Source: Podarcis erhardii (lineage: Eukaryota). Taken from it: a DNA stretch of 64,000 nucleotides. Every line of letters starts with the position of its first letter. The stretch's first letter is position 1. A program made the position numbers. Below, piece by piece: positions 39,111 through 48,100 of the stretch. The stretch lies in the NCBI GenBank assembly GCA_964252035.1, contig OZ176200.1, one strand, 5' to 3'.

Positions 39111-42100
39111 ATAATGAGGATAAAAGTGCCACAAGTATCAGGATAACATGGCTGCTATGGGCATGGGGAGGATGTTGGGATTTCAGTCTCACATCGCTGA
39201 TGTAACATGATATCCATGTTGACATTCCTGTACTGTTGTGTACTGTTATGCATGAGAACAGAAGTGAGCATCTGTAACTTCCGCTGTTTGTTCTCTCTCT
39301 CTGCTCTCGCAAAAGAGAGATGTGTGTGAGGCACTCAGCTCACACTAGCTATGCTTTGTTGTTTTAATTCGCTGTAAATAATAAAAGAAATTCGGAGTGC
39401 TACATATCTGACAGTCTGCTTCCTGCTGATACTCTGCTGCAGCCCTGGGAGGGGTATTTTTAACTTCCCCTCACAGGGGGGCTGCCAATAGGAAGGTGTC
39501 AGTCAGGGGTCAGCAAACCTTTTCATCAGGGGGCCAGTCCACTGTCCCTCAGACCTTGTGGAGGGCCAGACTATATTTTTTGGGGAAAATATGAACGAAT
39601 TCCTATGTCCCACAAACAACCCAGAGATGCATTTTAAATAAAAGCACACATTCTACTTATGTAAAAACACGCTGATTCCTAGACCGTCCGCAGGCCGGAT
39701 CCGGCCCCCAGGCCTTAGTTTGCCTACCCATGGTGTCAGTCCTCCATACTAGTGACTACTGCCACCATGTTTGCTTTTTGTTACTTCACATTGTGCAACT
39801 GCAACACTTGAAAGTTGTCTGGAATTAGAGGTGGGTTAGGAGAAAAGAGCCAAGATTGATGGAGCAGGCTGGGGGAGGGGAAGGATTCAGTTCCACTCAC
39901 CCTTGTATCCCACCATTTGACACCCCCCCCCACTTTATTTTATACCTTATATTACGTTTAGCTGTGCCCAAACATAAATGGTACTCACATCACTCTGGAG
40001 ATCATAGGCCTTTCTAGCTTGGATGACGTCATTCTGATCTGGAAGGCAGGTCCACTGGTGCAGATAATGACGGTAATCAATATCACTGACCAACTTCTGG
40101 CAATTCTTGGCGTGCAACACTTCCAACATGTCCACAGGGCTAATATACTTAGTCTTCCATTTCTCAAAGTCCTTCTTATACTCCCTCTCACTCTGCATTT
40201 TGGCTACATTCATAGAATGCACAAGTTTCGGGTCATCTTGCACACTGCGTGCTCCAATGTGGTGCCCAAGTTGTTTGCGATAGCCTTCTTTGTATTTGTA
40301 CTGAAATAGATATACATGTGTAAATTGTCTACCCATAAGATTATTCATCAGATAGCTGCACTGGAAAATCCCACATTCTGAGAGGACTGTGACAGTATTT
40401 TCCCCATCTAGATAGCATCTTTCTTCCTTATCTTTTTGCCACTTCATTTTTCTATTTCCTCATACAGGTTCTATAATAATCTTTAAAGATTTGTTTCCTT
40501 TAGGAAGGTATTTTTAATATTATTCATGAATCTTTTAAAAATGGACCAGTCATTCTGTTTTGTGTTGTTTTCAGAAGGGGCAGGTTTAAAGAAAAACAAC
40601 AGGGGGGAAAAACAAAACAAATGCGAGCATTAGCCAAATCTAAGTGTAAGCTTGAATGACAAGCCTGGGTTCCATGCCAAAGTTCCATGCAATTCCTGGC
40701 ACTGTGGTCTAAACCACTTAGCCTAGGGCTTGCCAATTGGAAGGTAGATAAATAGGTACCGCTCTGGCAGGAAGGTAAACGGTGTTTCCGTGTGCTGCTC
40801 TTCACCAGAAGCGGCGTAGTCATACTGGCCACATGACCCGGACAAACTGTATGCGGACAAACACCGGCTCCCTCGGCCAGTAAAGTGAGATGAGTGCCAC
40901 GACCCCAGAGTCATTCGCGACTGGACTTAACTGTCAAGGGTCCTTTACCTTTACCTTTTAGCTGTCAACATACTGCCACATACTAGGAATAAAGTGTAAC
41001 TATTTTATTTTACGGATTCAGGCATGCTTTGGATTCCACCATCACCAGTTTGGGCACTTGTGAAAACCTAACATATTCAACGAATATTCCTATTAATGAT
41101 GATTGACTATATCAATAAAATGGGGGAAGCTATTTAGTCCATCTAAATCTATCCAAAGCATCACAAGAGTAGCTGTATCAGCTGTGATAAATGAGGGATT
41201 CACATATCACAGCCTTTTCAACAATTCAAACCAGAAAACAAAAATCCACCTATTCAGTAACTGAGCCATAGAAAAATGATATTTTTTAAAAAAAGTAATA
41301 GGGGAAGTGGGTTAGGAAGATGCAATTCCTATTACATGACAGCATCTGACAACTTATGAACAGAACTACTCACTTCGCTTGCAATGTCTCTTGAAGCTTT
41401 AGCAGCCTTGATTGGAATTGCATCTGCACGAAGATCATAACCCTTTCTCCTGGCCTCTTCCAATGAAAGTTTGTATAATTTCTAAAAGAATGGCAAAGAT
41501 TGGTTTAATGTTTAAAAATAGAGCACTTGTTATTATTCTAAATTGGTTTTCTACCAACGATTTTGAAGACATTACTTACATCACTATAGTTGATCTTGTT
41601 CTGCTGTGACAATATAATTTCAGGAGTATCTGGCATAATGTGAATGGTAGTTTTATCCTTGTTCCATGCATCAATATACTTGCGCTGAAAAAATAGTAAA
41701 AAATAGTAAAAAAAGAGAGTAAATAAATTATTTGATAAAGGTAGCAGCTGCCAAAAATGGTAATTCATTCATTCATTCATTTGTTTGTTTCTAAAATCTC
41801 TTAGAAGCCCTTTACAATCATAAAACTGATAAAACTGTTGAAGGTTCCAAATTGCCTCCAAGGGCAGCCCCACATAGAGAAAATTGCCGTAATCCAATCT
41901 GGAAGTTACCAGAGCATGGAGTACTGTGGCCAAGTCTTCTTTGTAGTTGGGCCGTAGTTGGCATACCAGCTGTAGATGTAAATGAACTCCTAGGCACTGA
42001 GGCTACTTGGGCCTCCACTGACAGAGATAGGTCCAGAACATCACAATGCTTGCACCTGCTCCTCCCAGAGGAACTTTGGATACATAACACCCTCATCTTT

Positions 42101-45100: not shown

Positions 45101-48100
45101 GTCTTCCACCATCTCCAAGCACCAGTCAATCTCCTCTCGTGCTTTGGATGAAACAGAAAGAGATTGATGGGTACATTCCACATATTAGTGGTATTTCACT
45201 TCAAATCTCCTGGTGACAGGTCTGAAGATTTCAGATAGATATTAAATAACATATGGGGGGGAACACTCATGTTGTCAAACAATGCCCTCCCCATAACTAC
45301 TTTCTGGAAATGGCCTTAATCCAACATGTATGAAAACCAATACTTTGCTACAAAATGGTTGCTACCGGGTATGAAAATAAGAATGAATGGAATGTGCCTC
45401 CTTAGCACAAAAATGAAACTCTTAATTAGTTAATTAGGGCCAGATAACAATCATAGAGATAGTTATAATGATAAAATCACAAGGCAAATTCTCTAAGTGG
45501 TCAGAGCCTGCATATTCCCAGTCACAGCATTGCTAAACCAGGCACATTTCTTTATATATTTGCTCATATGAGTTTTAAGGAAGGGGCATGAATGAAACTC
45601 ACATGGTCCATAACTTCAGAATTATGCTTTGCCAAAGCCATAGGCATAGAATCAATGGGACTTGTGAATTTGAATTTGTCAGGATGCTGTCTGTAGATGT
45701 AGTCACTCAAGATCTGAGAGGCTCTCTTATTCTTCTCAGCTTCCAAGGAACCACTTGGAGTCCAGCCAATGCCCTTTAGCCATTCAAGATCTGCTTTATA
45801 CATATTCTGTTTGAAAAGAAACAAGCAGGGAGGACAATAGTTCCATGAAAACCTTCCATTACAATTGAGGATTTTTCCTTCACAAATTATAATCCACATC
45901 AACTAAAGAGACTGTTCTTACACTGTCAACTTGTGTCAGCACAGATTAAACAAAAGAAACAAACTTTTTCAACTTTTTTTTTACTCTTTTAATATATAGT
46001 ATGCATGCTATCTAAATAGAATGCAGCCATTAGGTTGATGAGCAGGGCAGCCCAATAGAACCATCTACTACCAATCCTGAAGGGGATGAGTTAGGACCAC
46101 TTTCTTGCTCACCATTAGGTGGGACCTAGGCTTTGGGCTATGACTTGGCATACCCCTTGGAACAGGCAGGTCCCTCAAGGTTGAAGTTAGCTTCCCACTC
46201 TTCTGACTTATGAATAATATGTTCCCTCATTTGACCCATCACTCCGGTCTCACCTTTTTGTTCTAAGATCCAGGCACAATTATCATTATCTGCTGTTTAG
46301 AGACAGGCTTTTCCCCCATGAGGAATTGTGAATAAAATCCACTAACCCTGGGATAGTCTCATGCTTAAAAGCTTTTAAGAAAAAGTAAGATACTTACATC
46401 GCTCTGAAGTTCATATGTTTTCCTGGCATGCACAACATCATTCTGATCTGGCAGGCATGTCCATTGGTGCAGATAATGACGGTAATCGACATCGCTGACC
46501 AGCTTCTGGCAATTCTTTGCCAGTAAGACTCCAAGCATATCCACAGGGCTGGTATACCTGGTCTTCGATTTTTCAAAGTCTTTCTTATACTCTCTTTCGC
46601 TCTGCATCTTGGCTACATTCATAGAATGCACAAGTTTTGGGTCATCCTGTATGCTGCGTGCTCCAACATGGTGGCCAAGCTGCTTGCGATATCCATCTTT
46701 GTACTTGTACTGTGGGAAAGAGAAAATTATTTTCACTAACTTCTCATTCTAATTACATTAAGAGGTGCTCGTCTATTTATAAAGGTCTTATCAAACAATC
46801 ATCCCTCCAAAACTTGATTTCTCAGGACATCCTAACTTATATAATCAGGCGTTTCAGCTCAAATGGTTGGGCATGACCAACAGTCATTTAAGAGTTTATG
46901 GAATCAAAGCAATATTGTGTGATTGTAGCATTGTAAAACATTAAGCAAAATTTAACCATCCTTCTGTGTTAAGGTTTGCCTGTCTAAACCAAAATGGCAA
47001 GATGTACCCAGGATCTCAGAAGGTCCTGGGTACATCTGCAGGACCCAAAGTGAGCTATTCCAGGGGTGTGTCGGGGACAGGCTTGGATGTGCATGAACCT
47101 AAGCTGTCATTGTTATCCTGATGCACACACAAAAGGGCCTCTTAGCTACACCAGCCCTGGAGCTGTTAAAATTAATAGCTTTCCATTATCTGCAACTGGG
47201 GGTGGGAAGGTAACAAACAAACAAAAGGATGAAAAAGTTGCCAACCCATCCCACTGAGCCAATAGGGCTATGGGTGTGGCAGATCTCCTCCCAGGTATAT
47301 AAGATTACCCCACCCATAAGCAAAGTATTTATTAAACCATTAATACAAATAATTTAACATGGAGTTCCTTCTACCAATAGACCTCTCTCTCTGCCAGCAC
47401 AGCAGCACTTCTGCCTCTTCCTGTTTCTCCTTCAGACTGCCTCAGAGCCAGAGGGAGCTTTGAATTGCTCCCTAACAGGACATATTTTTTATTCATAAAG
47501 GGAACGTATCATATATATCTATATCTCTGAACGTTGATTCAAGATAGCATTACAATTTACAAAAGAGAAATAAAAGAGAAGCTGAAGCCAGGCTTTGATT
47601 TACATTCATTTTATATGTGTTCAAAATCTGACACTTTTCAAATCACAATTCATTCATTTCAGCTATTATAACGATTATACGAAGCACTACAATTATTTTT
47701 GGGAAACTTCGAAACTATTTTCCCCCTTAAGTTTTAGTTGATAAATATATAAAAAAAAAATACAAGAAAATCAGTGTGTGCACTTATGTGTAACTAAATG
47801 TATATACATATGCAAACACATCCCTTAGAAAGTTCACGTTAACAATGTGCCGAATCAAAGATTAAATAAGCAGCATTGCCATTTTGCTGTTAACCAGCAG
47901 AATGAAATACTTACTTCACTGGCAATATCTCGAGATGCTTTCGCAGCCTTGATTGGTATGGCATCGAGTGGAAGGTCATAGCCTTTCCTTATCAATTCTT
48001 CAAATCCTAACTTGTAGAGTTTCTAATGAGAGAACCATCAGAAAGTTAATCGCTGTGGAAGCCCAGCAAGAAAACAGACCACTCAAACACCCTCTTGTGC

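What the first reader, a model, noticed from the sequence alone, without database searches (positions are those of the whole stretch)
39989..46709. Second, single super-repeat duplication whose crossover point appears to lie inside a 312-nt exon (chimeric exon 43698-44009)
Exons 45603/44776/44565 repeat as 42779/41580/41374. The intron downstream of 43698 (about 43560-43697) resembles the intron downstream of 46398 (about 46280-46397). The intron upstream of 43698 (44010-44560) resembles the intron upstream of 39989. The exon itself switches allegiance. Its 5' part matches 39989 ([17 protein letters not shown]). Its last roughly 96 nt match 46398 ([19 protein letters not shown]; 4 differences). 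This is the footprint expected from unequal crossing-over between two paralogous 312-nt exons, which preserves frame and module register.
Basis: partly seen in the sequence, partly recalled or inferred. Interest (0 to 1): 0.65.

Follow-up and report, generated by a model that had tools for sequence, protein, structure and literature searches.

The report
Old nebulin super-repeat duplication, hybrid exon
A lizard-like nebulin gene gained one extra four-exon super-repeat long ago by unequal recombination between two related 312-base exons, leaving an in-frame hybrid exon; this is a clear example of a known way that this muscle protein changes length.

Summary
The window carries the super-repeat region of nebulin on the minus strand.

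- **Duplication:** one super-repeat of four exons (312+204+105+108 nt = 243 aa) is tandemly duplicated, 46721..43684 ~ 44023..39974.
- **Overlap:** the two copies overlap only in exon 43698-44009.
- **Flanking introns:** its downstream intron matches only that of exon 46398. Its upstream intron matches only that of exon 39989.
- **Switch inside the exon:** nt 1-149 are 141/149 identical to 39989. Nt 217-312 are 92/96 identical to 46398. Max chi-square 16.7, reached by 32 of 100000 permutations.
- **Hybrid polarity:** it is the polarity expected for the duplication product of unequal crossing-over.
- **Outgroups:** Gekko kuhli and Ahaetulla prasina nebulins each have one copy of this unit.

Caveats:
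- The event is old (intron K2P about 0.2).
- The switch is located only to exon nt ~117-220.
- Later gene conversion has reshaped the locus. A 276-nt identical tract covers exon d, and exon 39989 is 98% identical to exon 36250.

Super-repeat duplication in nebulin is already known, so this is a new instance of a known kind.

The parts
46398..46709 (-). 312-nt exon upstream of super-repeat unit A; upstream parent of the hybrid exon
   Evidence: AG|exon|GT, frame 0, 104 aa. Pfam Nebulin repeat E=4.3e-17. Best Gekko match is residues 1778-1882, the exon before the single-copy A unit. Keeps the outgroup-like GVLLAK and VVHARKTY motifs.
45603..45806 (-). Unit A, exon d (204 nt, the TPSGSLEAEK exon)
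   Evidence: Boundaries. 204/204 nt identical to 42779-42982. 89.7% aa identity to a single Gekko segment and 81.8% to a single Ahaetulla segment.
44776..44880 (-). Unit A, exon c (105 nt)
   Evidence: 99/105 nt identical to 41580-41684, with 0 aa differences.
44565..44672 (-). Unit A, exon b (108 nt)
   Evidence: 103/108 nt identical to 41374-41481, with 1 aa difference.
43698..44009 (-). Hybrid 312-nt exon that carries the duplication junction
   Evidence: Informative-site switch. Max chi-square 16.7, reached by 32/100000 permutations. Quartet sites for 39989-side:46398-side:50707-side are 6:1:2 in nt 1-149 and 0:5:0 in nt 258-312. Flanking introns have different exclusive partners.
43794..44009 (-). 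Exon nt 1-216 of the hybrid: 39989/36250-like part
   Evidence: 195/216 identical to 39989, 196/216 to 36250 and 184/216 to 46398. Codons 60 and 63 (E, H) are shared with 39989, 36250 and 50707 but not with 46398.
43698..43793 (-). Exon nt 217-312 of the hybrid: 46398-like part
   Evidence: 92/96 identical to 46398 versus 77/96 to 39989. All 4 differing codons are synonymous.
43559..43697 (-). Start of the intron downstream of the hybrid exon; homologous to 46257-46397
   Evidence: 107/136 identical, K2P 0.25. Local score 61 against 7-9 for the other exons' introns.
44010..44564 (-). Intron upstream of the hybrid exon; homologous to the intron upstream of 39989 (40301-41373)
   Evidence: Three aligned blocks at 78-87% identity, controls, three-way alignment.
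42779..42982 (-). Unit A', exon d
41580..41684 (-). Unit A', exon c
41374..41481 (-). Unit A', exon b
39989..40300 (-). 312-nt exon downstream of unit A'; sits at the position of the downstream parent, but its sequence is now 98.1% identical to exon 36250
   Evidence: The conversion patch 39982-40510 ~ 36243-36769 is 93% identical.
45588..45863 (.). 276-nt stretch identical to 42764-43039 (exon d plus flanks): recent gene conversion between the two copies
   Evidence: Longest exact run is 276 nt, and differences become denser away from it on both sides. K2P is 0 to 0.10 near exon d against about 0.2 elsewhere.
40654..40973 (.). Insertion present only in copy 2; a repeat related to 30392-30594 on the other strand
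   Evidence: Gap in the copy1/copy2 alignment; 79% match to 30392-30594.
41940..42286 (.). Insertion present only in copy 2; internally palindromic and related to 472-587

Best explanation
The window holds the central super-repeat region of a squamate nebulin gene on the minus strand. In the lineage of this animal, one super-repeat was duplicated in tandem. It consists of exons d, c and b plus a 312-nt exon, 729 nt or 243 aa in all.

The mechanism I commit to is unequal homologous recombination. The 312-nt exon downstream of the unit on one chromatid paired with the paralogous 312-nt exon upstream of the unit on the other. This produced the order 46398 - A - hybrid(43698) - A' - 39989. The hybrid exon has the 5' part of the downstream parent and the 3' part of the upstream parent.

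All these exons are 312 nt and phase 0. The exchange therefore kept the reading frame and the seven-module register, and the extra super-repeat should lengthen the protein by one thin-filament repeat.

The event is old. Since then the two copies have diverged by about 20% in their introns and have gained copy-specific insertions. They have also been partly re-homogenised by gene conversion. One tract lies around exon d. Another runs between exons 36250 and 39989, probably from 36250 into 39989.

Shown: the tandem copies, the exclusive intron partnerships, the switch inside the exon, intact exons, and a single copy in two outgroup proteins.

Inferred: the recombination mechanism, the direction of the later conversions, the age, and that both copies are spliced into the mRNA.
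For: - **Gene identity.** Pfam Nebulin repeat with E 4e-18 to 4.3e-17 on 3 of 3 exons tested. The exon series is colinear with named nebulins of Gekko kuhli and Ahaetulla prasina.
- **Tandem copies.** Intron homology runs over the whole unit.
- **Junction confined to exon 43698-44009.** The copies overlap only there. Its downstream intron matches only 46398's, and its upstream intron matches only 39989's.
- **Switch inside the exon.** 50 informative sites, max chi-square 16.7, reached by 32 of 100000 permutations. Quartet-informative sites are 6 for 39989, 1 for 46398 and 2 for 50707 in nt 1-149. They are 5 for 46398 and 0 for the others in nt 258-312.
- **Polarity and register** are as expected for the duplication product.
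- **Outgroup polarisation of the end motifs**.
- **Copy number of the A-type exon d.** 2 in the window, 1 in Gekko kuhli P0121, 1 in Ahaetulla prasina P0310. The A-type clade has 92/93 support.
- **Consistent age.** Exon divergence in the hybrid is 8/149 and 4/96 differences, matching exons c (6/105) and b (5/108).
- **Purifying selection.** c has 6 nt differences and 0 aa differences. b has 5 nt differences and 1 aa difference. The 3' part of the hybrid has 4 synonymous and 0 non-synonymous codon differences.
- **Literature.** Independent super-repeat duplications in nebulin, and tolerance of whole super-repeats only (PMC7754682, passages seen).
Against: - Nt 150-257 of the hybrid are no closer to either parent than to exon 50707 (93, 91 and 95 of 108). 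In 60-nt windows across nt 127-228, 50707 is the best match, at 55-57 of 60. A clean two-parent chimera does not predict this. It needs either later overwriting of 39989 by 36250 or a further conversion.
- The break is located only to nt ~117-220 within 2 lnL units.
- Gekko kuhli has the same total number of super-repeats in this interval as the window: three, arranged A, B', B against A, A', B. Replacement of an older middle repeat is therefore not excluded.
- Only 2 outgroup proteins cover the region. Both are computer-predicted models, one of them flagged partial/unverified. A third, Varanus P0129, skips five super-repeats and is uninformative.
- No close relative of the window's species could be examined.
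- No transcript evidence that both copies are expressed.
Confidence: 0.78

Rival explanations
1. Replacement, not gain. The ancestor already had three super-repeats here (A, a B-like middle unit, B). A roughly 3-kb gap-repair or double-crossover event, anchored in the two flanking 312-nt exons, then copied unit A over the middle unit. This gives the same hybrid exon 43698. It would also make exon 39989 a hybrid, and the super-repeat number would stay unchanged.
For: Between the exon matching Gekko 1779 and the one matching Gekko 2519, the window and Gekko kuhli both have three units. They are A, A', B in the window and A, B', B in Gekko. Ahaetulla has four: A, B'', B', B. Exon 39989 ends in [13 protein letters not shown], like the Gekko and Ahaetulla exons that follow a B-type unit, and unlike the exons that follow A, which end VIHARKAY. 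Gene conversion is demonstrably active at this locus.
Against: It requires a conversion tract of about 3 kb across sequence with no intron homology and only about 60-67% aa identity between A-type and B-type exons d. The B duplicates cluster within species: Gekko pair 91/92, Ahaetulla pair 98/96. That fits independent lineage-specific duplications. The 3' end of 39989 is equally explained by the later 36250-to-39989 conversion.
Confidence: 0.12
2. The duplication junction was not a homologous crossover at the present switch point. The duplication arose by another route, such as a replication-based or end-joining event with a junction at the exon edge. The mosaic in exon 43698 was then painted later by short gene-conversion tracts from neighbouring 312-nt exons.
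For: Conversion tracts are seen in this very array: a 276-nt identical run around exon d, and the 36243-36769 ~ 39982-40510 patch. Four of the five 312-nt exons share the derived EVLHAK motif, absent from outgroup exons. The middle of the hybrid resembles 50707 best.
Against: The exon is exactly 312 nt, in register and without indels. Intron homology to 46398's intron starts at the donor site, and homology to 39989's intron reaches the acceptor region. Whatever the repair pathway, the join therefore lies inside paralogous sequence, which is the signature of homology-guided exchange. The 3' part (4/96 differences) and the 5' part (8/149) are about as diverged as exons c and b. They thus look as old as the duplication rather than recent.
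Confidence: 0.08
3. Assembly artefact: a single super-repeat wrongly assembled twice.
For: A 276-nt stretch is identical between the copies.
Against: Outside that stretch the copies differ by about 20% in introns. They also differ by 6 and 5 nt in exons c and b. Copy 2 carries insertions of about 320 and 350 nt that copy 1 lacks. There is no N in the window.
Confidence: 0.02

Closest known systems
Lineage-specific super-repeat duplications of nebulin (Bjorklund et al. 2010, J Mol Biol 402:38, not held, content recalled only; Gohlke et al. 2020, PMC7754682, passages read)
   Same: Whole seven-module super-repeats are added in the central part of the protein, independently in different vertebrate lineages. 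Only integer numbers of super-repeats are tolerated (passages).
   Different: The reptiles in Gohlke et al. were alligator, turtle and viper; the words 'lizard' and 'Anolis' occur 0 times in the text. That work compared protein-level identity and did not map junctions. Here the junction is mapped to the inside of an exon. The supplements of that paper could not be seen and may list more detail.
Human NEB triplicate (TRI) region
   Same: An in-frame tandem repeat of super-repeat exon blocks within nebulin, thought to arise by non-allelic homologous recombination (PMC9109913, abstract listing, passage).
   Different: TRI is eight exons repeated three times with highly identical copies. The proposed recombination substrates are Alu and LINE repeats in the last intron of each block. 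Here four exons are repeated twice and introns are only about 80% identical. The substrate was the paralogous coding exon itself, and no shared transposon sits at the junction.
Hybrid exons or genes made by unequal crossing-over between tandem paralogues (textbook cases such as opsin or glycophorin hybrids; recalled, not checked in any call)
   Same: A junction inside homologous coding sequence, a chimeric product that stays in frame, and later gene conversion between the copies.
   Different: Here the exchange is between repeats within one gene. It changes the repeat number of a ruler-like protein instead of creating a hybrid gene.

Membership tests
Nebulin super-repeat region | Nebulin repeat modules (Pfam PF00880) | tested here: met
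   3 of 3 exons tested score 61.9-65.1 bits against a cut-off of 20.1.
Nebulin super-repeat region | Seven-module super-repeat period of about 243-245 aa, encoded by a recurring four-exon set | tested here: met
   312+204+105+108 = 729 nt = 243 aa. 312-nt-exon homologues are spaced 243 aa apart in Ahaetulla P0310: 1351, 1594, 1837, 2080, 2323, 2566.
Nebulin super-repeat region | Colinearity with annotated nebulin of other species | tested here: met
   Window exons map in order onto Gekko kuhli P0121 residues about 733-4256 and Ahaetulla prasina P0310 residues about 548-5454.
Tandem duplication by unequal homologous recombination | Two direct, adjacent copies with homology through the introns | tested here: met
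Tandem duplication by unequal homologous recombination | The junction lies in a pre-existing paralogous sequence present at both ends of the unit; the middle element is a hybrid with the 5' part of the downstream parent and the 3' part of the upstream parent | tested here: met
   The exact point is resolved only to exon nt ~117-220.
Tandem duplication by unequal homologous recombination | No indel or filler at the junction; register preserved | tested here: met
   The exon is exactly 312 nt, phase 0, and aligns without gaps to the four paralogues.
Tandem duplication by unequal homologous recombination | A single-copy state in outgroups | tested here: met
   One A-type exon d in each of 2 of 2 outgroup proteins that cover the region. 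The third, Varanus P0129, has none and skips the region. These are predicted proteins, and no close relatives were available.
Tandem duplication by unequal homologous recombination | A reciprocal deletion allele, or copy-number polymorphism in populations | not testable with these tools
   No population or read data are available.
Ectopic gene conversion between repeats | A short tract of much higher identity embedded in older, diverged duplicate sequence, without a change in copy number | tested here: met
   A 276-nt identical run lies in copies that are otherwise about 80% identical. The 36243-36769 ~ 39982-40510 patch has 6 differences in the 312-nt exon and no homology beyond it. This applies to the later overprint, not to the origin of the duplication.
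Human-type NEB TRI segmental duplication | An eight-exon block repeated three times, highly identical copies, Alu/LINE at block ends | tested here: not met
   A four-exon block repeated twice with intron identity of 75-91%. The junction lies in an exon. The feature list is taken from PMC9109913.

The most novel reading that the evidence does not exclude
The 312-nt exons of the central nebulin super-repeats act as a standing recombination substrate. Through them, different squamate lineages have independently expanded different neighbouring super-repeats: A in this animal, B in Gekko, B twice in Ahaetulla. The total stays within a narrow range. On this reading, super-repeat identity turns over under a constraint on nebulin length, and hybrid exons such as 43698 are the fossil junctions from which each gain and loss could be dated.
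Probability: 0.25. Interest if true: 0.45.

Novelty: new member of a known kind. Interest (0 to 1): 0.27.

Why it matters
Nebulin length is thought to track thin-filament length, and only whole super-repeats can be added or lost (PMC7754682). This locus shows at base-pair level one way in which that constraint is met automatically. Recombination between in-phase paralogous exons can only add or remove whole super-repeats.

It also shows that repeat-by-repeat orthology in nebulin cannot be read from sequence identity alone, because conversion keeps rewriting the 312-nt exons. For a specialist this is a neat worked example rather than a surprise.

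Tried and rejected
- **Short nebulin fragments.** The first protein search, with the hybrid exon alone and lengths 'longer', reached only proteins up to 2000 aa. It gave one squamate fragment, Varanus P0045, which does not cover the region.
- **Varanus models.** P0129 and P0147 skip from the unit matching window 56964 to the unit matching window 34932. 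They say nothing about the A unit.
- **Full-length nebulins.** The third search returned 996 candidates, but only 120 were listed. These were nearly all mammals, with a single squamate, P0310.
- **Bjorklund et al. 2010** is not held. What I say of it is recalled.
- **Literature searches on the mechanism.** Searches for nebulin together with unequal crossing-over, non-allelic homologous recombination or gene conversion, and for nebulin with super-repeat and lizard, found no paper that maps a nebulin duplication junction inside an exon. They found none on lizard nebulin super-repeats either. This holds only for the held library, and supplements are closed.
- **Exon d tree.** It cannot date the duplication, because the two window copies are identical there through recent conversion.
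- **Direction of the 36250/39989 conversion.** I first took the weak similarity of the last 40-55 nt upstream of 43698, 39989 and 36250 as a sign that 39989 was the donor. The three-way alignment changed this. Homology between the upstream introns of 39989 and 43698 stops exactly where 39989-36250 homology begins, which favours 36250 as donor.
- **Joined model.** All searches and comparisons with window sequence were done exon by exon.
- **Closed collections.** The genome-contig collection holds only bacteria and archaea, so no DNA of other squamates could be compared.

Full report
**What the window is.**
The region lies in a long series of minus-strand exons. Each of the three 312-nt exons tested matches the Pfam Nebulin repeat (E 4e-18 to 4.3e-17). 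A search with the hybrid exon alone returned proteins named nebulin or nebulin-related.

The exon series of the whole window is colinear with nebulin of Gekko kuhli (P0121, residues about 733-4256) and of the snake Ahaetulla prasina (P0310, residues about 548-5454). Per-exon identities are mostly 75-97%. Mammalian nebulins listed were 75-79% identical to the Gekko query, the snake 85%. I take the window for a squamate and not for human. The window has no N.

Every search or comparison with window sequence was done exon by exon.

**Anatomy.**
Each is flanked by AG and GT, is open in frame 0 and encodes 104 aa. Between 46398 and 43698 lie three exons:
- d, 45603-45806, 204 nt
- c, 44776-44880, 105 nt
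- b, 44565-44672, 108 nt

The same three lie between 43698 and 39989, at 42779-42982, 41580-41684 and 41374-41481. All have canonical splice sites. With a 312-nt exon this makes 729 nt or 243 aa. That is the spacing of the homologous exons in the snake protein.

The pairs are 204/204, 99/105 and 103/108 nt identical, with 0, 0 and 1 amino-acid differences.

**The duplication.**
Self-comparison shows two direct copies with homology through the introns:
- 43559-44023 ~ 46257-46721
- 42287-43253 ~ 45108-46082
- 41296-41939 ~ 44487-45106
- 40974-41137 ~ 44300-44467
- 40516-40653 ~ 44104-44235
- 39974-40340 ~ 43684-44060

In gene order, copy 1 is therefore 46721..43684 and copy 2 is 44023..39974. 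They overlap only in exon 43698-44009.

Controls confirm exclusive partnerships:
- The first 140 nt downstream of 43698 score 61 against those of 46398 and 7-9 against the three other exons' introns (shuffled maximum 13).
- Nt 140-600 downstream score 108 against 10-12.
- The upstream intron scores 52 (last 300 nt) and 69 (nt 300-900) against that of 39989. It scores 8-14 against those of 46398 and 50707.

The duplication junction therefore lies in the exon or in its last few tens of bases of acceptor flank.

**The switch inside the exon.**
Exons 46398 and 39989 differ at 53 sites. The hybrid follows one of them at 50 (27 like 46398, 23 like 39989). The order is strongly non-random: max chi-square 16.7, with the break between exon nt 216 and 220 (window 43794/43790). 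This value was reached by 32 of 100000 permutations.

Identities of the hybrid:

| Exon nt | to 39989 | to 46398 |
|---|---|---|
| 1-149 | 141/149 | 129/149 |
| 217-312 | 77/96 | 92/96 |

With 50707 as fourth taxon, quartet-informative sites are as follows:

| Exon nt | 39989 grouping | 46398 grouping | 50707 grouping |
|---|---|---|---|
| 1-149 | 6 | 1 | 2 |
| 150-257 | 2 | 2 | 2 |
| 258-312 | 0 | 5 | 0 |

The polarity is that of the duplication product of an unequal exchange: 5' from the downstream parent, 3' from the upstream parent.

**Results that do not fit a clean two-parent chimera.**
Nt 150-257 are no closer to either parent than to 50707 (93, 91 and 95 of 108). In 60-nt windows between nt 127 and 228, 50707 is the best match, at 55-57 of 60 against 48-51. 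A simple likelihood profile puts the break anywhere from nt ~117 to 220 within two log-likelihood units.

Part of this is explained by the outgroups. Exon 46398 keeps GVLLAK, as do the Gekko and Varanus exons (GILLAK). The hybrid, 39989, 36250 and 50707 share a derived EVLHAK (codons 60 and 63, nt 178-189). That stretch of the hybrid is therefore not from 46398, which moves the break to nt ~190-220.

The other part is explained by exon 39989 having been rewritten. It is 98.1% identical to 36250 (6 differences), inside a patch 39982-40510 ~ 36243-36769. In the three-way alignment of the upstream introns, homology of 39989 to 43698 stops at the very point where homology of 39989 to 36250 begins. 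This is most simply read as conversion from 36250 into 39989 after the duplication (inference).

The six states that set 39989 apart in nt 150-208 are all shared with 36250. They would then be imports, and nt 1-216 of the hybrid would preserve the original downstream parent.

**Age and later history.**
Kimura two-parameter distance between the copies is 0.195-0.311 in 7 of 11 intron blocks. It is 0.143, 0.101, 0.046 and 0 in the four blocks nearest exons b and d.

A run of 276 nt (45588-45863 = 42764-43039) is identical, and differences become denser away from it. This indicates a recent conversion around exon d.

Copy 2 carries insertions that copy 1 lacks. One is 40654-40973, related to 30392-30594 on the other strand. 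The other is 41940-42286, palindromic and related to 472-587.

The divergence of the hybrid from its parents (8/149 and 4/96) is like that of exons c and b (6/105 and 5/108). Both halves thus look as old as the duplication. With a recalled vertebrate neutral rate near 1e-9 per site per year, a distance of about 0.22 means of the order of 100 million years. This is a rough inference, not a result.

**Outgroups.**
The A-type exon d (…[14 protein letters not shown]…) occurs as follows:
- twice in the window
- once in Gekko kuhli P0121, at residue 1883, 89.7% identical
- once in Ahaetulla prasina P0310, at residue 1698, 81.8% identical
- not in Varanus P0129, a partial model that skips five super-repeats

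These four A-type exons form a clade with 92/93 support.

The order of units in each species is:
- Gekko: E1779 - A - E2022 - B' - E2276 - B - E2519
- Ahaetulla: E1594 - A - E1837 - B'' - E2080 - B' - E2323 - B - E2566
- Window: 46398 - A - 43698 - A' - 39989 - B - 36250

The B duplicates pair within species: Gekko 91/92, Ahaetulla 98/96.

The Gekko exon before A reads YKYKD…VVHARKTY, like 46398. The one after A reads YKYKE…VIHARKAY. The hybrid reads YKYKE…VVHARKTY.

However, the equal total of three units in Gekko and the window leaves room for replacement of an older middle unit rather than a net gain.

**Mechanism and function.**
I commit to unequal homologous recombination between the two in-phase paralogous exons as the origin (confidence 0.78). 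Gene conversion is a later overprint. The rivals are:
- whole-unit replacement (0.12)
- a different original junction masked by later conversion (0.08)
- assembly error (0.02)

Both copies have intact exons and splice sites and show mostly synonymous change. The extra super-repeat is therefore probably in the protein (inferred; there is no transcript data). [quoted passage not shown]

**Comparison with what is known.**
Independent super-repeat duplications of nebulin are established. This rests on Gohlke et al. 2020 (passages read) and on Bjorklund et al. 2010 (cited there, not held, recalled only).

For the human triplicate region, the proposed substrates are Alu and LINE elements in the last intron of each block (PMC9109913, passage). 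Here the substrate is the coding exon itself.

In the held library I found no paper that maps a nebulin duplication junction inside an exon, and none on lizard nebulin super-repeats. Supplements are closed and could hold more.

**Verdict.**
The finding is correct and well observed. It is a new instance of a known kind, of modest interest (0.27).

Noticed in passing
window 45588-45863 and 42764-43039: A 276-nt stretch (all of exon d plus 15 nt downstream and 57 nt upstream) is identical in two copies that are otherwise about 80% identical in introns. Divergence rises gradually on both sides. This looks like recent gene conversion between the duplicated super-repeats.
   Followed up: yes
window 36243-36769 and 39982-40510: Exon 36250 and exon 39989, with about 210 nt of upstream intron, are 93% identical (6 differences in the 312-nt exon), while the rest of the two super-repeats is unrelated at intron level. 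The patch ends where homology of 39989's intron to 43698's intron resumes, which suggests conversion from 36250 into 39989. Identity falls from about 97% to about 75-80% in the distal 90 nt, so there may have been two events.
   Followed up: partly
window exons 50707, 43698, 39989, 36250 (codons 60-63) versus 46398: Four of the five 312-nt exons share a derived EVLHAK. Exon 46398 and the Gekko and Varanus homologues have G[IV]LLAK. This is a sign of concerted evolution among these exons in this lineage.
   Followed up: partly
It covers the 312-nt exons 19630/22504 and 25935/28594. Weaker exon-level matches extend it (24726-24837 ~ 31291-31400, 25004-25244 ~ 32328-32573, 25939-26249 ~ 33527-33837). 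Its junction was not analysed.
   Followed up: no
P0121 (Gekko kuhli) residues 2131-2518; P0310 (Ahaetulla prasina) residues 1937-2565: The super-repeat next to the one duplicated here (B-type; window exon d at 38764) is present twice in Gekko and three times in Ahaetulla. The copies pair within each species. Different squamates have thus expanded different neighbouring super-repeats.
   Followed up: partly
window 40654-40973, 41940-42286, 43254-43558: These stretches are present in copy 2 only. The first is related to 30392-30594 on the other strand. The second is internally palindromic and related to 472-587. The third has no other copy in the window. They are probably transposon insertions after the duplication.
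   Followed up: partly
window about 48270-48530 and 48847-49150: A long triplet microsatellite (reading frames of poly-L, poly-N, poly-I and poly-Y) and an adjacent open frame that looks like an interspersed repeat. Both lie in the intron between the super-repeats at 50707 and 46398.
   Followed up: no
P0129 / P0147 (Varanus komodoensis, partial models): These predicted proteins pass directly from the unit matching window exon d 56964 to the unit matching 34932. They lack counterparts of five window super-repeats. Whether this is a real difference, exon skipping or an assembly gap is unknown.
   Followed up: no
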